NCBI GenBank assembly: GCA_964591265.1
Contig: CAZQAB010000015.1
Location: 301-64,300 of the forward strand
Reading direction: 5' to 3'
DNA length: 64,000 bases
Origin: an uncultured Lachnospiraceae bacterium
GTDB lineage: Bacteria; Bacillota; Clostridia; Lachnospirales; Lachnospiraceae
Part shown: in pieces, positions 54,991-64,000 of the stretch
How positions within the stretch are numbered: position 1 is the first letter of the stretch
Layout: each line of letters opens with the position of its first letter
The notes under the pieces: model-generated
The model's database searches: none
The model's input: the letters and a program-made list of their open reading frames with translations, nothing else
What the model was told of the DNA's origin: nothing
Program-made: the position numbers and the translations under genes

Positions 54991-55956
54991 ATGCTTACCC
55001 CTGTATTGCTGTTCATTGTCGGACTGCTGTGCCTCATCAAAGGAGGAGACTGGTTTGTGGATGGGGCGACGGGAATCGCCCGTAAGTTTCATCTTCCGGA
55101 GCTGCTGATCGGAGCGACGGTGGTATCCATCGGGACGACGCTGCCGGAGGTCATGGTTTCCACCACGTCGGCGCTGGCCGGCCACGGTGAGATTGCGTAT
55201 GGAAACGCCATTGGTTCTGTAATCTGCAATACGGCGCTGATCGCCGCGCTCACGGTTGCGCTAAGACCCGGCAAGGTGGATAAAAAGTCGCTGCGCACGC
55301 CGGCTCTGTTTTTCTTCATTTCGGCCGTGATCTATGCCGCTGTGGCTTATTTGTCCGGGTATTTCAGCAGGGCCGTCGGCCTTTTGATGCTGGCTTTATT
55401 CATACTATATATGGTAACTACGGTGGTTCAGATGAAAAACAATCCGGATGCCGGCGCAGGGGAAGAAGAGAGGGAAACTAAGAGCTCTCTGGGCAGGAAT
55501 CTGCTCCTGCTGGTGATCGGCGCCGCGCTGATCGCGGTGGGCGCGAATCTCCTGGTGGATAACGGAACGTTGATCGCCCAGGCCATGGGCGTGCCGGAAT
55601 CCGTGATTGCGCTGACGTTTGTCGCGCTGGGGACCTCGCTGCCGGAACTTGTGACGGCGATCACTTCCCTGGCAAAGGGCCATGGGGCGCTTTCGCTGGG
55701 AAACGTGATTGGCGCCAACCTTTTCAATATTGTACTGGTCAGCGGCGTTTCCATCACGCTCGCTCCCTTCAGCATTCCTCAGAACGCTGTGATCTTCGGG
55801 CATAACGCGTCGCTGGTACTGGACATCCCGGTGATGTTTGGGGTGATGCTGCTTCTGACGCTGCCGGGGCTGATAAAAGGAAAACTTTTCAGGGCCCAGG
55901 GCATTTTGCTGCTGGCTGTCTATGCCGCTTTCTGCGTGATCCAGTTTACTTTGTAA
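54991..55956 (+). CDS. Calcium/sodium antiporter (YrbG-like)
   Basis: Two alpha repeats GTTLPE / GTSLPE; GNAIGS / GNVIGA. Confidence 0.94.
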   Translation: MLTPVLLFIVGLLCLIKGGDWFVDGATGIARKFHLPELLIGATVVSIGTTLPEVMVSTTSALAGHGEIAYGNAIGSVICNTALIAALTVALRPGKVDKKSLRTPALFFFISAVIYAAVAYLSGYFSRAVGLLMLALFILYMVTTVVQMKNNPDAGAGEEERETKSSLGRNLLLLVIGAALIAVGANLLVDNGTLIAQAMGVPESVIALTFVALGTSLPELVTAITSLAKGHGALSLGNVIGANLFNIVLVSGVSITLAPFSIPQNAVIFGHNASLVLDIPVMFGVMLLLTLPGLIKGKLFRAQGILLLAVYAAFCVIQFTL

Positions 55957-56369
55957 TCCTCCAGATCCCGTTTAGTTTCTTTTTTTGTACATAAACTGGG
56001 CGAGCATCCAGGTAAGACCTTGTGATCCGGAAAGATTCTGCGATCTTTCATAGAGAAAACTGCTATTTTTTAGGAGTAAAATTTACCACGGTACGGTACC
56101 AAAATCCGCGTGAATGTTCATTTTACCAAATCTTATTGAGGGGTCTGCTACGATACGCGTCTACTGCTGTAATCATCAACTCTTTGATTAAAGTGTGAAA
56201 ACTTTGGAAATACACAAAAACTACATATTTTTTTTGTAGGATTTTAATAGCTTATTCATAGATAGAAGATTGAAAATGCAAAGTAGAAGGTACCCATTAC
56301 CTTAAGCACACGACAAATAAGCCCTCTTTCGGTGGCTGCTTTAAAAATTAAATATTGAAAATGTTAAGG

Positions 56370-56838
56370 TTATGCAGTTGCTGACTTGACCTATAGCCTT
56401 GATTCCTTGCTATAATGATTGCCTGCTCTACCGTGATCTCACGGTCAACGGGAGGCGGATGTCAGCAGGTGGCATAAAGCTTCCGGCGACAAGATCGTGC
56501 TTAAACAGGTCAGCAATCCATTTGGCATCTTTCTTGTCGGTTTTCTTTCCACGGATAGCGTTAACATATTTGGGATGAGCAAGGACAATCGAACATTCTT
56601 TTTCAAGGATGTTGTAAACAGGAATCCAGTATTTACCGGTAGATTCCATACAGACGTCTTTGCAGTTGCGAGCGAGCAGCCATTGTAACAAATTTTTCAG
56701 ACCGCTCGTGTAGGTTGAAAAACGGTGGCTCTCATAGGTGGTCACGCCTTTGCTGTCAGTAGAAGCAATGCAGGCCACTACAAAAGTCTTGTGGACATCA
56801 ATGCCACAGCAGATTTTGTACACGATTTTTAAAGCCAT
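56370..56838 (-). pseudogene. IS110 transposase remnant (DEDD RuvC-like domain plus C-terminal tail; Tnp serine domain lost)
   Basis: CGIDVHK, MESTGKYW, KTDKKDA motifs; after PPADIR a different frame reads PPVDREITVEQAIIIARNQGY, then a further frameshift to VKSATA-stop at 56370. Confidence 0.88.
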
Positions 56839-56869
56839 AGGGACTCCTTTCAGAACCGAGAGGTTCGCT

Positions 56870-57088
56870 AAAGATTATAGGGAGAGACAGCATTGACTGA
56901 ACGCATAAGCCATAAACGAGATTGTTTAATCAAAGATAAGATTACGCGCTTGGAATGCGAACTTGTTCGCTATACACACTTATTTGTGTTTGAAAAGGCG
57001 GACTACACATATAAATATATAGTCATCCGGTAAGCCGGACAGCCCACTCATCCCCCCGTGATTTGTAGTATACCGAATTCCCTACAAA
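56870..57088 (-). ncRNA. Candidate IS110-associated structured ncRNA (bridge-RNA-like)
   Basis: TATAAT on the minus strand (57099-57094) followed by hairpins at 57062-57088, 57026-57039, 57001-57024, 56957-56970 and 56927-56944; G-U pairs favour the minus strand. Confidence 0.55.
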
Positions 57089-57283
57089 AAAGAATTATAA
57101 CGAGAAAATACGCTCAGGGAAACCATTTTCATAACGTTTTGTGCCTGAGCGAAGCGAAATGGATATAAATATGGAAATATAAAGGGAGATATCTGTGCTG
57201 AATTACTACATTATAAGCATAGCTCAGGAAATGTATTAAGAAGTGCAGATACCCAAAGAATTCAGGCGAAAATATATAGATAA

Positions 57284-57401
57284 ATATTTCTGAACTTTTT
57301 AGGAAATTAACTCTCTGAAATGGGAGTTAAAACATACGATTTTCCAGTAAATATGGGCCTTTTTACTATTGAGAGTTAATTTTTCAAGAAATTCAGAATA
57401 T
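57284..57401. repeat. ~118 bp element with ~32 bp imperfect terminal inverted repeats (MITE-like)
   Basis: atatttctgaactttttaggaaattaactctc (57284-57315) versus gagagttaatttttcaagaaattcagaatat (57371-57401); inner 12 bp perfect. Confidence 0.6.
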
Positions 57402-57425
57402 TATACCGGGAAGGAGAATGTATAA

Positions 57426-58103
57426 GTGAAAACAATACTAATTATTGAAGATGATATAGATATTCAGGAAATGATGCGTTTTTTCCTAGAGGATCAGAAT
57501 TATAAAGTTGTTACAGCAGATGATGGCGTGTCTGGAATAGAAATTTTTTTAAATAATCAACCAGATTTGGTATTGTTGGACATTATGCTACCAAAGATGA
57601 ACGGGTATGCTGTTTGTGAGTTAATACGGAAACAATCAGAGGTACCGATTATTATGATTAGTGCATTGGGGAGTGAAGAAGATCAGATAAAGGGATTTGA
57701 ATTGCAAATAGATGACTACATTTCAAAACCTATTTCTCTTCCTATCATGATGAAAAAAATTGAAGCTATTTTACGTAGATACCAGAAAAAAGACCTGGAA
57801 GAACAACTTGAATTACAATATCATGAAATTTCTTTGATGCTTGATGATTACAGAGTAAAAATAGGAGAGGATTTTGTGGATTTGACACAAAAGGAATACG
57901 AAATCCTGAAGGAATTGATGGAAAATCAAGGTCATGTTATTTCAAGAGAAAGTTTTTTGAATCGTTTATGGAAATATGAATTCATGGGAGAAGAACGGGC
58001 AGTGGACAATCATATCAAAAATTTGAGAAGAAAACTTGGTAAAGCAGGAAATTATATTGAAACTGTAAGAGGGGTGGGATACCGAATTGATAAAATATAT
58101 TAA
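57426..58103 (+). CDS. OmpR-family response regulator
   Basis: IIEDD, LLDIMLP, DDYISKP, TVRGVGY; GTG start. Confidence 0.95.
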   Translation: MKTILIIEDDIDIQEMMRFFLEDQNYKVVTADDGVSGIEIFLNNQPDLVLLDIMLPKMNGYAVCELIRKQSEVPIIMISALGSEEDQIKGFELQIDDYISKPISLPIMMKKIEAILRRYQKKDLEEQLELQYHEISLMLDDYRVKIGEDFVDLTQKEYEILKELMENQGHVISRESFLNRLWKYEFMGEERAVDNHIKNLRRKLGKAGNYIETVRGVGYRIDKIY

Positions 58104-59493
58104 AGAGCATTTAGCTGTCAAAATATTTATTGTAACTGTAGGAGTGCTTTTAATGGTATGTATATTACTTTATGGAATGATTGTGCTGGGGATTTCCCAC
58201 AGTTATATTGCAGAACTGGATGAGAGTATAGACAGGCAGATGGAACAGATTGTTGAACAAATACCTGAAATTTCCGAAGATGAAATGAAGGGTATGATAA
58301 GTATGTTTGCGATGGAACATGTGATTAATATTAGTATCAGAAACGATGATGGAAATGAAGTAGGAAACTATGGATCAATTGCATATGATATATCACCTGT
58401 GATAAATACGAATGAAAAACAGGAAAATACGGGTATCACGAAATCTTATACGGCAAGTAATAAGGAAGGGGAAAAATATCATCTGCTGGTATTTGGAGAC
58501 AGACAGCAGACAAATGCTGTATTAAACTCACTTAGTCGAGTATTTCCGATGTTAGGCATGGTTACATTTCTAGCAGCGCTTATCACAGCGGCTTTTTATG
58601 CAAGATACGTTACAAAGCCAATTCTGGCGATCAGTGATGTGTCGCGTAGAATGGCAGATTTAAAATTTGATGTACGTTGTTTGGAGAACAGAGAAGATGA
58701 ATTGGGGATTTTAGGAGAAAATTTAAATCATTTGGCAGAACGGCTTGAGGAATCGCTTAGGGAGCTGCATGAAAAGAATAAGCTTCTTCAGCATGATATT
58801 ATCAGAAAACAGCAAATTGAACAGGAACAAATGGCTTTTTTCTCAGCAGTATCACATGAATTGAAAACACCAGTCACTATTCTGAAAGGGCAGATACAGG
58901 GAATGCTGTATAATATTGGTGGGTACAAGGATAGAGATAAATATCTAAAACGATCAGGTGAAGTGGTTAATTCCCTGGAAGAGATGGTACAGGAAATTTT
59001 AGAAATTGCAAGAATTAAGTCAAAAGGGTTTTCTTTAAATATGTCAGCAGTAGACATGAAACAACTGATCAAAGAAGTGCTGAAAGATATGGAGGATATT
59101 GCCATTGATAAGGGATTGCAGTTAAATATCAGCTTATCAAATATACCAGTAATAAATGCAGACCGATCATTTATGAAAAAGGTACTGAATAATCTTGTCG
59201 GGAATGCAATAAAGTATTCAGAAGCAGAGGCGAATATTTGGATAGATCTGTATGAAGAAAACAAAAGTATCGTTTTTTCTGTTGAAAATGAAACATCACC
59301 TATCCCAGAAGAAGAAATCCCAAAACTTTTTGAAGCCTTTTACAGACGTGAACAGTCGAGAAATAGAATGTCAGGAGGAAGCGGTTTGGGGTTGTACATT
59401 GTAAAGATGATTTTGGAACTACATCATTTTCAATATAATTTTGTAAATACAAAAAATGGAATAAGAATGAGAATTATATGCCCGATAGTATAA
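58087..59493 (+). CDS. HAMP-domain sensor histidine kinase
   Basis: Two TM segments, EDELGIL HAMP, SHELKTP, NAIKYS, GSGLGL. Confidence 0.95.
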   Translation: MIKYIKEHLAVKIFIVTVGVLLMVCILLYGMIVLGISHSYIAELDESIDRQMEQIVEQIPEISEDEMKGMISMFAMEHVINISIRNDDGNEVGNYGSIAYDISPVINTNEKQENTGITKSYTASNKEGEKYHLLVFGDRQQTNAVLNSLSRVFPMLGMVTFLAALITAAFYARYVTKPILAISDVSRRMADLKFDVRCLENREDELGILGENLNHLAERLEESLRELHEKNKLLQHDIIRKQQIEQEQMAFFSAVSHELKTPVTILKGQIQGMLYNIGGYKDRDKYLKRSGEVVNSLEEMVQEILEIARIKSKGFSLNMSAVDMKQLIKEVLKDMEDIAIDKGLQLNISLSNIPVINADRSFMKKVLNNLVGNAIKYSEAEANIWIDLYEENKSIVFSVENETSPIPEEEIPKLFEAFYRREQSRNRMSGGSGLGLYIVKMILELHHFQYNFVNTKNGIRMRIICPIV

Positions 59494-59530
59494 GAGACGG
59501 TTCGTTGCGATAAGCAGCGGACCGTCTTTT
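59493..59530 (+). terminator. Intrinsic terminator after the kinase gene
   Basis: agacggttcgttgc-gataa-gcagcggaccgtct followed by ttt. Confidence 0.8.
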
Positions 59531-59618
59531 AATATACATGAAAACTACACAGAAAAAACGAGATAAAAACAGATGAAGAACGGAAAATAAGAAGCAGCAA
59601 GGCAAAGGAGACGAGAAA

Positions 59619-60836
59619 GTGAACTGTAAAAAAAGGGCACTACGTTACATATTAAGAAAGAAAGTAAAAACAATGACTTTATTTTTGGTTCTTTTACTTG
59701 CAGAGACGATGATTTTATCCATAGTAATAATATTAAGAGCTTCAACGGAAGAAAAAAAGTCATTGCAGGAAAGGACTAATACAAAAGTCATTGCAGAAAT
59801 CCAGAACGAAAAACAGTTTATTACAGAGGCAGAATTAAAACAAATGAAAAAAATGGAAAATGTCAGGGAGTTAAATTCTTCATTAAAGGTTACTGCTTAT
59901 CCATATGATTTTCAACTAATATCATACAGTGAAAACAATTCGGAAAAAAATATTCAGTTGCAGTTGACAGCGTATGACGATTTAAGTGCAGATGGTCCGT
60001 TCGCCGACAGTCAGGTGCGGTTGGTTGATGGGGAATATCCCCAAAAACAAAATGAAATTGTAATAAACAAAGTGTTGGCGAATTACAATTCGTTGACAGT
60101 TGGAAGCAGCTTGACGATAGAGAGTAAAGAAGGAACTGAAATAACTGCAATCGTATCTGGAATTTATAGTTCGGGATTGGAAGAGAAACAGGAAGAAGAG
60201 ACTCTGGCAGTATACAGAATAGAAAATACGATTTACACCAGTTCAGAATTTGCATTGGATATTCAATCGGATCAGGGATATGAAAGTGTCGTTGTTTATC
60301 TCAATGATCCAGAACAAATGGATGAAACGGCAGAAAAATTAGCTGCATTACTAAATGATAAGGTGACAATCACAAAATCAGATACGTTGTTTCAACAAAT
60401 GAAAGCTCCATTAGAACAGGTGGAGCGAGTGGTAAAACTAATGTTGATATTAACAATAGGAACATCAGTGATTGTGATCGCACTGCTGTTATGTATGTGG
60501 ATGCGAGCAAGGAAAAAGGAAATAGCAGTGTATATCAGTTTGGGAGAACCAAAAGGAAGTATTTTTTTACAAGTCTGTTTAGAAAGCCTAATGGTATTTT
60601 TGACAGCAACCTCCTCGTCCGTTTTTACTGGCGGTGTTGTAGCTTGGTTTTTAAATTTGATTTTATTTAATCATGATACTGAAAATTCCATAACACTTCA
60701 GATAGGAATACAAGGAGCGGATGTAGGGTATTTACTGGCATTGGGAATAAGTATATTAATTGCAGCATTGGGAATTTCTTTATTTCCTATTTTGCAAATG
60801 AATCCAAAAGATATTTTATCAGAAATGGAGGGATGA
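59619..60836 (+). CDS. FtsX/MacB-like ABC permease
   Basis: 1+3 TM topology, RKKEIAVYISLG, MNPKDIL. Confidence 0.9.
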   Translation: MNCKKRALRYILRKKVKTMTLFLVLLLAETMILSIVIILRASTEEKKSLQERTNTKVIAEIQNEKQFITEAELKQMKKMENVRELNSSLKVTAYPYDFQLISYSENNSEKNIQLQLTAYDDLSADGPFADSQVRLVDGEYPQKQNEIVINKVLANYNSLTVGSSLTIESKEGTEITAIVSGIYSSGLEEKQEEETLAVYRIENTIYTSSEFALDIQSDQGYESVVVYLNDPEQMDETAEKLAALLNDKVTITKSDTLFQQMKAPLEQVERVVKLMLILTIGTSVIVIALLLCMWMRARKKEIAVYISLGEPKGSIFLQVCLESLMVFLTATSSSVFTGGVVAWFLNLILFNHDTENSITLQIGIQGADVGYLLALGISILIAALGISLFPILQMNPKDILSEMEG

Positions 60837-62278
60837 AGATGGGAATTTTAAAAAGAGGCTTTTTCTCTATTATCAGAAAGCCAATAAAAAGTGTATTGCT
60901 TTTAGCGATTGTGACAGCAATTAGTAGTTTTTTTATAGCGGGACTGGCCTGCAAATCAGCCAGTGTTTTAGTGCAGGATTCTGCCAGACAGGCTGTGGGA
61001 GCAACTTTTCGGTTAGAAGAAAATGAAGAAAACCGGCATACCAGAATGGAAGAAGCCGTGAGAATAATAGGCGAGGATCAGAGCGGAAGTTACCAGGGCT
61101 ATTATCAGGAGAAGTTGGAAAACGGCAGTTGGAAAACTGGAACAGATAATTCATTTGAAACAATAAAAGTAGATGATGTTGAAATGATTGCGAATGTAGA
61201 TGGAATTGAAGACTATAATCTCATTACAGTTCCTACGGTAGTCAATCCTGTAAATTTTAAACGAATCGAGGATCAGGAGACCGATCAGAGTAATGATGTT
61301 GGCGGTGTCAATTTGAGGGGAAACCGTATCATGGAGATGGATATGGATGTTGCCGCCGGAAAGATTGAAATTGTGGAAGGAAGAATGGTGGACGAAAACG
61401 ATACAGATGTAGTTGTAGTCTCGCAACAGCTGGCTCAGTTAAATGATTTGAAAATTGGAGATATGTTGGAATTTAATGATTACCAGGATAAAGAAGATTC
61501 CACAATATATAGTGCTACTATAATAGGAATTTATAAAGCGGTACAAGAATTGAAACCAATTATGTCAGGCGATTCCTACCGTTCAGAAAATACGATATTT
61601 ACAGATATGAGTTTTCCGGAAAAGCCATCCGGGGATGAAGGAAATCCACTTTTTCAATATGCAATTTTCAAAGTAGAGGATGTTGATTTATATGATCAGG
61701 TAAAAGAAAATATTCGTAAGGCGGATATTGACTGGAGCAGGTATGACTTAATTGATAATAATGGAAATATGGAAAGCATGGCGGAAAATTTCAACAGTAT
61801 GGAAAAAATCAGTAATATCCTTTTGATTTTCATATCAGCAGCAAGTTTCGCAATACTAGTTCTGATATTTATTTTTTGGACGAGAAATCGTATTCAGGAG
61901 ATCGGGATTTTTATGGCCATTGGTGAAAGTAAGAAAAAAATCTGGGGACAGTTCATGTGGGAGGGAATGCTCGTAGGAATGATAGGGTTATTATTGTCTT
62001 TTGTAATTTCACCAATGCTGTCAGAAGTAACGGCGGTCTATTTGGCGCAGGAAACGATGATGGTACAGCAAGAACAGAATGCAGCAAGCTTGAATCAGGT
62101 TGCAACAGACGTACCCGAAACAGATTTGGATATTCAAGGCGTTGAAATACACATAACACGGATCATGATTTTGGAAGATGTTGTTGCAATCATTATGCTT
62201 TTGTTTGCTTCGGTATCTGTGGCGGGTATCACGATTATGAAAAGAAAGCCTAAAGCAATACTAAATGAAATGGGATAA
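60833..62278 (+). CDS. FtsX/MacB-like ABC permease
   Basis: RKPIKS, RIQEIGIFMAIG, RKPKAIL. Confidence 0.9.
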   Translation: MKMGILKRGFFSIIRKPIKSVLLLAIVTAISSFFIAGLACKSASVLVQDSARQAVGATFRLEENEENRHTRMEEAVRIIGEDQSGSYQGYYQEKLENGSWKTGTDNSFETIKVDDVEMIANVDGIEDYNLITVPTVVNPVNFKRIEDQETDQSNDVGGVNLRGNRIMEMDMDVAAGKIEIVEGRMVDENDTDVVVVSQQLAQLNDLKIGDMLEFNDYQDKEDSTIYSATIIGIYKAVQELKPIMSGDSYRSENTIFTDMSFPEKPSGDEGNPLFQYAIFKVEDVDLYDQVKENIRKADIDWSRYDLIDNNGNMESMAENFNSMEKISNILLIFISAASFAILVLIFIFWTRNRIQEIGIFMAIGESKKKIWGQFMWEGMLVGMIGLLLSFVISPMLSEVTAVYLAQETMMVQQEQNAASLNQVATDVPETDLDIQGVEIHITRIMILEDVVAIIMLLFASVSVAGITIMKRKPKAILNEMG

Positions 62279-62298
62279 ATACAGGAGGAGAATTACAG

Positions 62299-62433
62299 AT
62301 GAAAGAAAATACAGTTATTGGTATCCTGAACTTTTGTGCTGTGTCTCCTAAAAAAGAAACCGTTAGATATGAATACAGAACAGGCGATGTATTTTATAAC
62401 GAATTACCTGAATCATCACGATATCTTAATTAA
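62299..62433 (+). CDS. 44-aa ORF or gene remnant inside the ABC operon
   Basis: AGGAGG RBS, then MKENTVIGILNFCAVSPKKETVRYEYRTGDVFYNELPESSRYLN. Confidence 0.35.
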   Translation: MKENTVIGILNFCAVSPKKETVRYEYRTGDVFYNELPESSRYLN

Positions 62434-62507
62434 GAGCAATAAGATAGAGGGAAATGCTGGAGTTAACATAGGTATAGGGTTTCGGTATAAGACTGGGGAA
62501 GATTAAA

Positions 62508-63167
62508 ATGATTTTAGAGGCAAAAAATGTTGTTTATTACTACAAAGCTAATAAAACAAGAAAAATACTGGATGAGGTCTCCTATTCGTTTAAGGATGGA
62601 AATATGTATGCAATTTTAGGCCCTAGTGGATCTGGTAAAACAACATTTTTATCTTTACTGGCGGGATTGGATACGCCTGTAACGGGAGAGATTCTTTATG
62701 CAGGAGAAAATATTCAAAAAAAAGGATTGAATTATCACCGCAAAAATAATATTTCTTTGGTATTTCAGAACTATAATTTAATTGATTATCTGACGCCAAA
62801 AGAAAATGTTATGCTGGGCGGAAGTACCAATGTAGGAAGACTGTTAGAAATGGTCGGAATTCCAATGGAGGATTGGAATAGAAAGGTCCTTCAGTTATCA
62901 GGAGGTCAACAACAGAGAGTTGCTATCGCAAGAGCACTTGCAAGTTCAGCAAAAGTTTTACTGGCAGATGAACCTACAGGTAATCTTGATGAAGAAACCG
63001 AGGAACAAATTATAAAAATTTTGCAAAATAGTGCTCATAAACAAGGTAAATGTGTGATTGTAGTCACTCATAGCAGAAAAGTAGCTTCCGCAGCAGATGT
63101 AGTTATTAAAATAAACCTAGGAAAAATCACGGAAGAAAAAAAGATTGAATTGCTTCTGTCTGATTAA
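62508..63167 (+). CDS. ABC ATP-binding protein (LolD/MacB-like)
   Basis: GPSGSGKT, LSGGQQQ, ADEPTGNLD, VTH. Confidence 0.95.
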   Translation: MILEAKNVVYYYKANKTRKILDEVSYSFKDGNMYAILGPSGSGKTTFLSLLAGLDTPVTGEILYAGENIQKKGLNYHRKNNISLVFQNYNLIDYLTPKENVMLGGSTNVGRLLEMVGIPMEDWNRKVLQLSGGQQQRVAIARALASSAKVLLADEPTGNLDEETEEQIIKILQNSAHKQGKCVIVVTHSRKVASAADVVIKINLGKITEEKKIELLLSD

Positions 63168-63288
63168 AAATTGCTTTAGTATATGTTTGGCAATTACACA
63201 TAAATCATACAAAAAATACGCAGAAAGCATAAAGAATGACGATATGATAATGATGATACGATAATGATGTAAAGGAAAAGGATGGTAA

Positions 63289-63840
63289 ATGAAAAGAATT
63301 ATATTTTTTATTGCGCTTTTAACATTAGTTATGGTGGGAACTGCAGGGTGCAGCCAAGAAACCACGAATACCGATCAAACAGAAAATATGTCGCAAAATT
63401 CTCAAGATGAAACAGAAGATAAAATGTCAAGTTCAACCTACGATGAAAATGCTTATATGCAGGAAAGTGACTTAGATGAAGTAAAGGAAGAAGATTTAGA
63501 GGAAACAAACATTTTTGATTTGGCAGATCTGCAGGGAACTGTTTTGGAGTTTACAAATTCTGGCTGTACGATATCTCCACAGATAAATGAAGGGGATGAT
63601 TTAGCATATGAGGCAGCCGTTGGAGTAGAAGATGATGCAGGGAACATAACTGTATTATATTCTGCCGATACACAATTTCAAATTGTAACAGCTAACGCAG
63701 AACAGCAAGAAATAGAGAGTATAAACAATACAGAAAAGGACGAGTTAAAAAAGCAATCAGAGGTTTGCTTATTTGGGAATTATCAGGAAGATAATACATT
63801 TTTGGCAACAAGAGTGGTTATTGTCAGGTGGAATAGTTAA
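63289..63840 (+). CDS. Acidic lipoprotein of unknown function
   Basis: Signal peptide with lipobox TAGC. Confidence 0.8.
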   Translation: MKRIIFFIALLTLVMVGTAGCSQETTNTDQTENMSQNSQDETEDKMSSSTYDENAYMQESDLDEVKEEDLEETNIFDLADLQGTVLEFTNSGCTISPQINEGDDLAYEAAVGVEDDAGNITVLYSADTQFQIVTANAEQQEIESINNTEKDELKKQSEVCLFGNYQEDNTFLATRVVIVRWNS

Positions 63841-63859
63841 ATTCACAGGAGGTAATTGA

Positions 63860-63991
63860 ATGGAAGCTAAGGAATATACTTGCGTGATTGAACATTGTAT
63901 TAGTGAGAAAAGTTTTATAGGGTTAAGAGAAGAAGCAAGTGGTGTCATAGGAGTTCAATATGGTAAATGCTGCACCAGTAGAGCGCTTTAA
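63860..63991 (+). CDS. 43-aa Cys-containing ORF or gene remnant
   Basis: AGGAGGT RBS, then MEAKEYTCVIEHCISEKSFIGLREEASGVIGVQYGKCCTSRAL. Confidence 0.35.
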   Translation: MEAKEYTCVIEHCISEKSFIGLREEASGVIGVQYGKCCTSRAL

Positions 63992-64000
63992 AAAAATAAA

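What the first reader, a model, noticed from the sequence alone, without database searches (positions are those of the whole stretch)
56291..57167. Non-autonomous mini-IS110 retaining both ends and a highly structured upstream ncRNA region
Seen: the DEDD domain is joined at ~56455 (atCCGCCtccc) to the transposase C-terminal tail, so the middle of the gene is deleted. The ~330 bp upstream holds a -10 box, a 5' stem-loop, a multi-branch domain (tgagtgggc/gccttttca enclosing two hairpins), more hairpins, a possible long-range gggggga/tctctccc closure, and a separate stem cgctcagg/cctgagcg near the end. Known: IS110 recombinases use bridge RNAs encoded in their non-coding ends. Inference: an RNA-guided element that could be mobilised in trans. 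The fold looks multi-branched rather than the two-internal-loop IS621 pattern, so it may be a distinct bridge-RNA class. I could not assign guide segments with confidence.
Basis: partly seen in the sequence, partly recalled or inferred. Interest (0 to 1): 0.7.

Follow-up and report, generated by a model that had tools for sequence, protein, structure and literature searches.

The report
Decayed IS110 copy keeping its bridge RNA
This is a single, internally deleted and probably immobile copy of a common gut-Clostridia IS110-family insertion sequence that still carries its guide ("bridge") RNA gene; its intact relatives show the family uses that RNA to insert just upstream of host start codons.

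Summary
On the minus strand, 56266-57168 is a 903-bp derivative of a ~1.67-kb IS110-family element. About 475 relatives were found in Lachnospiraceae and other Clostridia. A 778-bp deletion between CCGCC/CTGCC microhomology removes the coiled-coil and serine (Tnp) domain and shifts the frame. Both ends are present.

The ~280 nt upstream of the truncated gene is a real structured RNA gene. A fold tested on 42 relatives is 92.7% paired, against 27-40% for slid controls, with 14 compensatory pairs.

Two guide segments can be assigned:
- AU-NN-UU copies the flank next to the left end and matches it at 44 of 53 insertion sites.
- AA(U/C/A)CUU copies the right end plus the TT core in five variants.

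The "CAT" beside the left end is the host start codon. The family inserts between the Shine-Dalgarno sequence and ATG, and one empty site confirms this. IS900 is known to target the same kind of site.

Guide order is IS1111-like, not IS621-like, and no right-donor guide was found. The window copy is single, not at a gene start, and has no transposase partner in the assembly. It is most likely a relic, not a mobilisable mini-IS. The scan's note e1-5479245 raised the SD/ATG idea.

The parts
56266..57168 (-). Whole mini-element, from the left-end TT core (57167-57168) to the right-end TT core (56266-56267). It is 903 bp, against ~1668 bp in full-length relatives.
   Evidence: blastn to the full-length copies in G019 and G022. 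Junction alignments of about 55 copies. Empty site L138. Coordinates.
57169..57173 (-). Flank next to the left end: CATAT, the left target (CAT + NN). In relatives the CAT is the host start codon. Here the reading frame from it is only 3 codons.
57111..57151 (-). Hairpin H0 (CGCTCAGG / CCTGAGCG), followed by a T-rich tract and lying upstream of the -10 box. Its loop TGAAAATG (57124-57131) is complementary to right-end bases CATTTTCA (56271-56278).
   Evidence: Helix 1 is 87% paired. Loop and right end covary across subfamilies: UGAAAAUG/CATTTTCA, UGAAAAUA/TATTTTCA, UGAAAAAG/CTTTTTCA, UGAAACA/TGTTTCA, UGAAUCC/GGATTCA. Its role is unexplained.
57094..57099 (-). Conserved -10 box TATAAT, the presumed bridge-RNA promoter. 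Diverged relatives have TGnTAnnnT extended -10 boxes at the same place.
   Evidence: Alignments. Not picked up by the consensus promoter scan because the -35 is weak. There is no transcript evidence.
56888..57087 (-). Inferred bridge RNA of about 200 nt. It has a closing stem P0 (57070-57075 with 56888-893), a target loop and a donor domain.
   Evidence: Covariation-tested model: 92.7% paired, 14 pairs with changes on both sides. alifold. Single-sequence fold z = -2.07.
57003..57068 (-). Target-binding loop. Stem P1 is CTACA (57064-068) / TGTAG (57003-007) and the cap hairpin H2 is at 57025-57040. The 5' strand carries the SD-like GGGGGGATGAG (57047-057). The 3' strand carries ATATTT+ATAT (57009-57018), which equals left target AT-AT + core TT + right donor ATAT.
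   Evidence: H2 has 5 of 7 pairs with compensatory changes. NN covaries with the flank: MI 1.24 and 1.11, and 44 of 53 sites match against a shuffle mean of 9.3.
56900..57002 (-). Donor domain. Long-range stem S_L (56996-57002 with 56900-906) encloses hairpin H3 (56975-988), an 18-nt optional hairpin (56957-974, shared with L050), the guide AATCTT (56938-943, equal to the right end plus core) and hairpin H4 (56912-930).
   Evidence: S_L has 5 of 7 pairs with compensatory changes, and the window has one C.U mismatch. The guide covaries with the right end in five states: AATCTT, AACCTT, AAACTT, ACACTT, ACACTA.
56428..56838 (-). Truncated transposase ORF of 136 aa. It has an RBS AAAGGAG at 56844-850, preceded by hairpin H5 (56853-866) and a second TATAAT (56874-879).
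   Evidence: Pfam PF01548, positions 1-109 of 155. NCBIfam NF033542 at 95.6 bits, below the cut-off of 140.
56453..56462 (-). Deletion junction: 778 bp lost between CCGCC/CTGCC, with a frameshift.
56266..56452 (-). Out-of-frame remnant of the last ~22 transposase codons (56393-56449), plus the right non-coding end. This includes the sub-terminal repeat AATGGGTA (56291-298, the partner of TATCCATT at the left end) and the terminus GCATTTTCAATCTT (56266-279).

Best explanation
Window 56266-57168 (minus strand) is one decayed copy of an IS110-family insertion sequence that is common in Lachnospiraceae and other Clostridia.

Shown:
- A microhomology-mediated 778-bp deletion removed the coiled-coil and the serine-bearing Tnp domain and shifted the frame. 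The copy therefore cannot make a recombinase.
- Both ends and the roughly 200-nt bridge-RNA gene upstream of the ORF are still present and nearly intact.
- In the family, the RNA 3' strand of the first loop carries (C)AU-NN-UU. This copies the DNA left of the insertion point plus the TT core. NN differs between lineages and matches the flank.
- That flank is the host start codon plus two bases. Elements sit between a Shine-Dalgarno sequence and ATG, antisense to the host gene, at GGAGG-n3-AA-NN-ATG.
- A second RNA segment, AA(U/C/A)CUU, copies the right end plus the core.

Inferred:
- The RNA is transcribed from the conserved TATAAT.
- Its 5' loop strand GGAGGUGA pairs with the antisense strand of the host SD.
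- Recombination runs as in IS621, with a circular donor, a DEDD/Ser recombinase tetramer and exchange at the core.

The window copy itself lies in an AT-rich spacer at the edge of a low-GC island. It is not at a gene start and has no partner transposase. It is most likely an immobile relic that arrived with the island or was inserted off-target.
For: Identity and deletion:
-.
- The catalytic Ser motif (RVSKAG, aligned to IS621 RMSKAG in 8wt6, E = 8e-13) lies in the deleted part.

Ends and core:
-.
- The empty site L138, GGAGAGGAT-AA-TAATG, has one AA. The occupied site has AA on both sides of the element.

Structured RNA:
- 47 pairs are 92.7% paired, against 27-40% when slid.
- 14 pairs have double changes, against 3-7 in the slid controls. 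0 of 500 shuffles reach the observed pairing.

Target guide:
- MI is 1.24 and 1.11, with 86% and 95% identity between RNA columns and flank positions.
- 44 of 53 sites match exactly, against a shuffle mean of 9.3 and a maximum of 19 in 20000.
- The same rule holds in relatives with 51% identity: CATTTTT, CATTCTT and CATTCAT each reappear in their own RNA.

Start-codon targeting:
- In 37 of 48 sites the reverse-complemented flank read from that ATG is an ORF of 60 aa or more. The median is 206 aa, and the other two frames give 0 and 6.5.

SD contribution:
- 31 of 44 sites have an SD-like 4-mer within 12 nt, against 14.5% of all AANNATG sites in G000.
- SD plus a long ORF occurs at 26 of 44 sites, against 7.4%.

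Donor guide:
- Five covarying states.

Relic status:
- Single copy.
- No other IS110-type transposase in the assembly.
- None of the exact-pattern metagenome hits is this element.
- The flank ORF is 3 codons and there is no SD.
- The GC content steps from 56% to 35% at the element.
Against: - There is no transcript evidence, so the start site and RNA ends are inferred.
- No segment antisense to core plus right donor (the RDG of IS621) was found.
- The SD-like strand does not pair with the core, and its distance to the core varies from 0 to 5 nt among sites. Its guide role is therefore not proven.
- The background for the SD enrichment comes from a different genome, and fixed insertions have passed through selection.
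- The assembly is only 81% complete and multi-copy IS often fail to assemble, so a full-length partner could exist.
- The N-terminal 128 codons are still open (92% identical to G019), so the deletion may be recent.
- The window copy is only 85-88% identical to the nearest full-length copies found, so its own parent lineage was not sampled.
Confidence: 0.8

Rival explanations
1. One reading: a non-autonomous mini-IS that is still mobilised in trans by a full-length relative, like a MITE of the IS110 family.
For: - Both ends, the core dinucleotides and the guide-bearing RNA gene are retained.
- Its own target-guide bases AT-AT-TT match its flank.
- Published work shows that an IS110/IS1111-type mini-element with intact ends moves when transposase and the non-coding region are supplied in trans (PMC11187229, section 'Moving cargo').
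- The assembly is 81% complete.
Against: - There is one copy only.
- There is no IS110-type transposase elsewhere in the assembly.
- No further copy of the deletion junction turned up among the 19 exact-pattern hits in metagenome contigs.
- The copy has private changes: a 4-nt loss just inside the left end, a C.U mismatch in stem S_L, and an altered SD-like strand.
Confidence: 0.08
2. The upstream region is not a guide RNA. In this reading the repeats of flank and end sequences inside it are DNA-level features, such as recombinase binding sites, sub-terminal inverted repeats or a 5' UTR, and target choice is made by the protein.
For: - No transcript data exist.
- One covarying element (the H0 loop against right-end bases -13..-6) lies upstream of the presumed promoter and behaves like an inverted repeat.
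- An 8-bp sub-terminal inverted repeat, TATCCATT/AATGGATA, exists.
- Rfam has no match.
Against: - Compensatory base-pair changes in H2, S_L, H4 and P0 are the signature of selection on RNA or single-strand structure, not of duplex binding sites.
- The NN bases that covary belong to host DNA outside the element, and a protein site inside the element has no reason to track them.
- The family transposase is homologous to the IS621 and ISCro4 recombinases solved with bridge RNA.
- NCBIfam names it an RNA-guided transposase.
Confidence: 0.05
3. A mechanistic rival inside the main reading. Here only AU-NN-UU guides the target. The GGAGGUGA strand is a structural or protein-binding motif, and the SD next to insertion sites is a by-product of landing before start codons.
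For: - The SD-to-core distance varies from 0 to 5 nt, as natural SD-ATG spacing does.
- The strand lacks bases to pair with the TT core.
- The strand is nearly invariant across subfamilies, so it offers no covariation test.
- The window copy inserted with no SD present.
Against: - A 6-7-nt match alone predicts mostly non-start sites. Only 7.4% of AANNATG sites in G000 have both an SD and a long ORF, against 59% of insertions.
- GGAGG peaks at positions -8..-4 from the core in the site profile.
- One variant, GGGAAGG in L078, sits at a site with AAGG in the same register.
Confidence: 0.3

Closest known systems
IS621 / ISCro4 bridge recombinases and their bridge RNA (IS110 group; PMC11208160, PMC11208158)
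   Same: - DEDD RuvC-like domain plus Transposase_20 domain with a Ser motif, in the full-length relatives.
- A long non-coding left end upstream of tnp.
- No terminal inverted repeats and no target duplication beyond a shared core dinucleotide.
- An RNA of about 180-200 nt with guide-bearing loops.
- A guide that equals left target plus core, and a guide that equals the end of the element plus core. Both covary with the DNA.
   Different: - The core is TT, not CT.
- The bottom-strand (sense) target guide is on the 3' strand of the loop, not the 5' strand.
- That guide continues with four bases equal to the right donor.
- No antisense right-donor guide was found.
- A long-range stem closes both domains.
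- The donor domain is a three-way junction.
- The promoter appears internal to the left end rather than formed at the circle junction.
- The window copy lacks the recombinase.
IS900 / IS901 of Mycobacterium avium (IS110 family)
   Same: - Insertion in one orientation between a Shine-Dalgarno sequence and the start codon. The IS900 motif is CATGNNNNNNTCTCCTT (PMC8141618; PMC2942039 citing Doran 1997 and Inglis 2003).
- The family here uses CAT-NN-TT-nnn-CCTCC.
   Different: - A different phylum, and a transposase only distantly related.
- I did not find a paper in the searched library that explains IS900-type targeting by a guide RNA.
- No hed-like gene role was tested here.
IS1111-type seekRNAs (ISEc11, ISPa11, ISKpn4; PMC11187229)
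   Same: - The order of target matches: the top-strand complement lies 5' of the bottom-strand match.
- Sub-terminal inverted repeats are present.
   Different: - The non-coding region is upstream of tnp, whereas in IS1111 it is downstream.
- The inverted repeat is 8 bp, with 3-nt and 25-nt terminal extensions. IS1111 has 11-13 bp with 7-nt and 3-nt extensions.
- Clade membership of the transposase was not determined.
Internally deleted IS copies / engineered mini-IS110 cargo elements
   Same: The ends and the RNA gene are kept while the recombinase is lost. Engineered versions move when transposase and RNA are supplied (PMC11187229).
   Different: - This is a single copy with no evidence of amplification.
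- It arose by a microhomology deletion, presumably in place.

Membership tests
IS110-family insertion sequence | N-terminal DEDD (RuvC-like) domain PF01548 | tested here: met
   Window ORF: E = 2.3e-19, profile positions 1-109 of 155. Full-length relative: positions 1-151 of 155.
IS110-family insertion sequence | C-terminal Transposase_20 domain with catalytic serine | tested here: not met
   Absent from the window copy because it was deleted. Present in relatives: PF02371 at aa 256-343, and RVSKAG aligned to the IS621 S241 motif.
IS110-family insertion sequence | No terminal inverted repeats and no target-site duplication, with the same core dinucleotide at both junctions and once in the empty site | tested here: met
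   TT is at both junctions in about 50 copies. The empty site L138 carries a single AA/TT.
Bridge RNA (IS621 type) | Structured RNA encoded in the long non-coding end, with helices supported by covariation | tested here: met
   92.7% paired, 14 pairs with compensatory changes, 0 of 500 shuffles as high, and slid controls at 27-40%.
Bridge RNA (IS621 type) | A loop segment identical to left target plus core that covaries with the target | tested here: met
   AU-NN-UU: (44 of 53 sites). Also seen in diverged subfamilies.
Bridge RNA (IS621 type) | A loop segment complementary to core plus right target | tested here: inconclusive
   GGAGGUGA is complementary to CCTCC in the right flank and sites are enriched for an SD. 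However, there is no core pairing, the register varies and there is no covariation.
Bridge RNA (IS621 type) | A loop segment identical to left donor (right end of the element) plus core that covaries with it | tested here: met
   AATCTT, AACCTT, AAACTT, ACACTT and ACACTA each match their own right end.
Bridge RNA (IS621 type) | A loop segment complementary to core plus right donor (RDG) | tested here: not met
   The exact and antisense match search found only AT-rich chance matches inside hairpin H4, and these do not covary.
Bridge RNA (IS621 type) | Sense (bottom-strand) target guide lies 5' of the antisense guide | tested here: not met
   The sense guide lies 3' of cap hairpin H2. That is the IS1111-type order (PMC11187229).
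Bridge RNA (IS621 type) | The RNA is expressed and bound by the recombinase | not testable with these tools
   Only a conserved -10 box supports expression. Rfam has no matching model.
IS1111 group | 11-13-bp sub-terminal inverted repeats with 7-nt and 3-nt terminal extensions, and the non-coding region downstream of tnp | tested here: not met
   The repeat is 8 bp with 3-nt and 25-nt extensions. The long non-coding region (~320 nt) is upstream, and ~104 nt lie downstream.
Trans-mobilised non-autonomous element (MITE-like) | Several copies of the same derivative at different sites, and an autonomous partner in the same genome | tested here: not met
   Caveat: the assembly is 81% complete.
IS900-type SD/ATG targeting | Insertion between the Shine-Dalgarno sequence and the start codon of a host gene | tested here: met
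   Met for the family. Not met for the window copy itself: the ORF is 3 codons and there is no SD.

The most novel reading that the evidence does not exclude
The family's bridge RNA is a distinct architectural variant that reads a translation-initiation region. One loop strand is itself a consensus SD (GGAGGUGA) and pairs with the antisense strand of host SDs. The other strand reads the start codon plus two freely reprogrammable bases and the AA/TT core. It then runs on into the donor sequence as a product-stabilising extension. This would give an RNA-level explanation for the long-known IS900-type preference for the gap between SD and ATG. It would also mean that the orphan RNA gene in this window could still guide a related recombinase.
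Probability: 0.4. Interest if true: 0.6.

Novelty: new member of a known kind. Interest (0 to 1): 0.38.

Why it matters
The window feature by itself is an ordinary dead IS copy. Its value lies in what the intact relatives show.

- **A simple guide code.** This abundant gut-Clostridia IS110 lineage uses the start codon, two programmable bases and a TT core, probably helped by an SD-like strand.
- **Consequence for host genes.** Insertions separate genes from their ribosome-binding sites.
- **Link to older work.** This connects the bridge-RNA mechanism to the IS900-type targeting of translation signals described in the 1990s.
- **A natural test case.** The lineage carries an upstream-encoded RNA with IS1111-like guide order, which bears on how guide geometry can vary.
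- **Annotation.** The true element boundary lies 5 nt inside the conserved 'CAT', a trap for automated end-calling.

Tried and rejected
- **First boundary call.** I first placed the left end at TTTCC/CAT. I rejected this when the CAT proved to be the host start codon and the empty site showed the real junction.
- **'Donor guide' reading.** I first read AU-NN-UUAUAU as a donor guide. It is a target guide plus a 4-nt donor-matching extension.
- **CUUUUCAAG as a split donor guide.** This segment (5' strand of the donor domain) matches TTTTCAA of the right end in this subfamily. It stays the same in L008 and L014, whose right ends differ, so I rejected it.
- **GUAUAAAC as right-donor guide.** This is the H4 arm. 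It does not covary and is part of a helix with compensatory changes, so I rejected it.
- **H0 loop bases before AUGAAAA.** I tested them as an antisense reader of NN and found no covariation.
No covariation.
- **Rfam.** Only chance-level hits.
- **Empty site for the window copy.** The flanks are not conserved in 62 genomes of the genus.
- **Search for the same deletion derivative.** The 19 metagenome hits to the junction 19-mer are all unrelated DNA. L004 (G037) is a different, more degraded remnant.
- **Circle-junction promoter.** I looked for one by eye and found no convincing -35/-10 pair.
- **IS110 versus IS1111 clade placement.** Not resolved (one search was not informative).

Full report
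**What is in the window**

The finding lies on the minus strand. The only gene-like feature is a 136-aa ORF (56428-56838). It matches the first 109 of 155 positions of the DEDD_Tnp_IS110 domain and falls below the NCBIfam cut-off for an IS110 RNA-guided transposase. Rfam gives nothing meaningful.

A search of the window's own assembly (47 contigs, 81% complete) finds this DNA once. It finds no other relative of the family's transposase.

**Full-length relatives and the deletion**

Relatives in the same genus carry full-length copies. There are seven in G022 (88% identical) and one in G019 (85%). Each encodes a 415-aa protein with PF01548 and PF02371.

That protein aligns to the IS621 recombinase solved with its bridge RNA (8wt6, E = 8e-13). 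Its RVSKAG aligns to the IS621 catalytic-serine motif.

In the window, residues 1-128 and 388-409 remain, in different frames. Against G019, 778 bp are missing between CCGCC and CTGCC, which is the mark of a microhomology deletion. The serine domain is gone, so the copy is non-autonomous.

A scan of one genome per species found about 475 relatives. The best 80 (84-100% identical) come from Lachnospiraceae, Oscillospiraceae, Clostridium, Enterocloster, Blautia, Dorea and others.

**True ends and the target**

Aligning about 55 copies with their flanks first suggested a left end starting CAT-NN-TTATATCC and a right end ..TTTTCAATCTT. The two bases NN varied oddly even within one genome.

Reading the reverse-complemented left flank from that CAT explained it. 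In 37 of 48 independent sites it opens a host ORF of 60 aa or more, with a median of 206 aa. The other two frames give 0 and 6.5. The CAT is therefore the host start codon.

An uninterrupted copy of one host locus (L138) reads GGAGAGGAT-AA-TAATG. The occupied locus has ..GGAGAGGAC-AA-[element]-AA-TAATG. From this:
- The core is TT (AA on the host strand).
- The element runs from TT-ATATCC.. to ..CAATC-TT.
- The family inserts between the Shine-Dalgarno sequence and ATG, antisense to the host gene.
- The site in host sense is GGAGG-n3-AA-NN-ATG-AAA.

In the window this gives 56266-57168 for the element and CATAT (57169-57173) as flank.

**The upstream RNA**

I aligned 42 distinct left ends and tested a fold with eight helices. 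Of the 47 pairs, 92.7% of cells are paired, against 27-40% when the partner column is slid. Fourteen pairs carry changes on both sides, against 3-7 in the slid controls, and no shuffle of 500 reaches the observed values.

The strongest helices are:
- Hairpin H2, with 5 of 7 pairs compensatory.
- A long-range stem S_L, with 5 of 7 pairs compensatory.

A closing stem P0, a stem P1 and hairpin H4 are consistent with the data.

They show no signal, and 452 of 500 shuffles do as well.

The supported picture has three elements:
- A first domain of stem P1, a large internal loop and cap H2.
- A second domain in which S_L encloses two hairpins and a long single strand.
- A stem P0 that closes both domains.

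A conserved TATAAT (TGnTAnnnT in diverged relatives) lies about 10 nt upstream. No transcript evidence exists. The single-sequence fold of the window RNA is only modestly stable (z = -2.07).

**Guides**

The 3' strand of the first loop reads (C)AU-NN-UU-AUAU. Its NN columns carry the highest mutual information with the flank NN in the whole alignment (1.24 and 1.11 bits, with 86% and 95% identity). At 44 of 53 sites the two dinucleotides are identical, against a shuffle mean of 9.3 and a maximum of 19 in 20000.

Because NN is host DNA, this is covariation between guide and target. It has the polarity of the IS621 left target guide: same sense as left target plus core (PMC11208160). The next four bases equal the right donor ATAT, which I interpret as a product-side extension.

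Relatives with only 51% protein identity obey the same rule.

In the second domain, AA(U/C/A)CUU equals the right end plus core in five states. This is the polarity of the IS621 left donor guide.

The 5' strand of the first loop, GGAGGUGA, is complementary to the CCTCC found right of the element. It is conserved across all subfamilies. Sites are strongly enriched for an SD relative to all AANNATG sites of G000: 70% against 14.5%. With a long ORF as well, the figures are 59% against 7.4%.

Three things leave its guide role probable rather than shown:
- The distance to the core varies.
- It cannot pair with the core.
- It offers no covariation.

No antisense right-donor guide was found.

The order of the two target matches is the one reported for IS1111-type seekRNAs, not for IS110-type ones (PMC11187229). 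The RNA gene is nevertheless upstream of tnp, and the 8-bp sub-terminal repeat does not fit the IS1111 definition.

**An unexplained element**

Hairpin H0 lies upstream of the promoter and is followed by a T-rich tract. Its loop is complementary to right-end bases -13..-6 and covaries with them across subfamilies. It may be a DNA-level inverted repeat, or part of a longer RNA.

**What is known already**

- Bridge and seek RNAs of IS110 and IS1111 elements are established (PMC11208160, PMC11208158, PMC11187229).
- Thousands of variants have been mined (bioRxiv 10.64898/2026.10.21.760802).
- Insertion between SD and start codon is known for IS900 and IS901. The IS900 motif is CATGNNNNNNTCTCCTT (PMC8141618; PMC2942039).
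- I found no paper in the searched library that ties that preference to a guide RNA.
- Another note of this scan on the same stretch (e1-5479245) proposed SD/ATG insertion at a TA core. The family data agree on SD/ATG, but the core is TT and the window copy is not at a gene start.

**The window copy itself**

Its guide AT-AT-TT matches its flank. However, the site has no SD and only a 3-codon frame.

The copy has private changes:
- A 4-nt loss just inside the left end.
- An altered SD-like strand (GGGGGGAUGAG).
- A C.U mismatch in S_L.
- An 18-nt optional hairpin, shared with L050.

It sits exactly where the GC content drops from about 56% to about 35%. This is the edge of a low-GC block encoding an OmpR-type regulator, a histidine kinase, two FtsX permeases and an ABC ATPase.

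No copy of its deletion junction was found elsewhere.

**Verdict**

This is a real but ordinary relic of a known kind of element. Its bridge-RNA gene is nearly intact. Mobilisation in trans is possible in principle but has no support.

Noticed in passing
window 56000-64000: The GC content falls from about 56% to 33-37% at the element and stays low to the end of the window. The low-GC block encodes an OmpR-type response regulator (57426-58103), a HAMP/HisKA kinase (58087-59493), two FtsX-type permeases (59619-62278) and an ABC ATPase (62508-63167). This looks like a Bce-like peptide-sensing/export module on a probably acquired island, with the IS relic at its edge.
   Followed up: partly
window 57111-57151 and 56271-56278; same places in L007-L010, L098, L114: The loop of the hairpin upstream of the bridge-RNA promoter is complementary to bases -13..-6 of the right end and covaries with them across subfamilies. 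It is unclear whether this acts as DNA (an inverted repeat) or as RNA.
   Followed up: partly
left junctions of L036-L111 (for example L003 1495-1530): After insertion the host ATG is preceded by ..AAAGGA-ATG-GAT-ATA-ANN-ATG. An ATG supplied by the IS lies 12 nt upstream and in frame with the host start, so ORF finders extend host genes into the element (for example MSEAKGMDIIMKIGV.. in L003). I did not test whether host genes stay expressed from IS-borne signals.
   Followed up: no
L003 2260-2694 (-) and L002 2262-2696 (-): A 144-aa ORF antisense to the transposase gene is open in both the G019 and G022 copies. It recalls the antisense 'hed' ORF of IS900, but it may be a chance open frame.
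   Followed up: no
L093 (Acetatifactor MAG) and L004 (G037): These are other decayed copies. L093 keeps the transposase gene but has lost most of the bridge-RNA region. L004 has a deletion between the two GCACAAA repeats of the left end and a truncated gene next to a tRNA.
   Followed up: partly
window 57210-57239 (-): A promoter-like site (TTAATA-18-TATAAT, 10 of 12 matches) lies in the flank just outside the left end and points into the element.
   Followed up: no
G000:C27:59-127 and window 55906-55974: A 69-bp stretch covering the 3' end of the Ca/Na antiporter-like gene recurs at 97% identity near the end of another contig. There it is followed by tandem GGATTACAAxGTAAACxGGATC units.
   Followed up: partly
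L055, L069, L090 (alignment A1 columns 152-172): Some family members carry a 21-nt extra hairpin inside the cap loop of H2. Others, including the window and L050, carry an 18-nt hairpin in the donor domain. These look like tolerated insertion points in the RNA.
   Followed up: no
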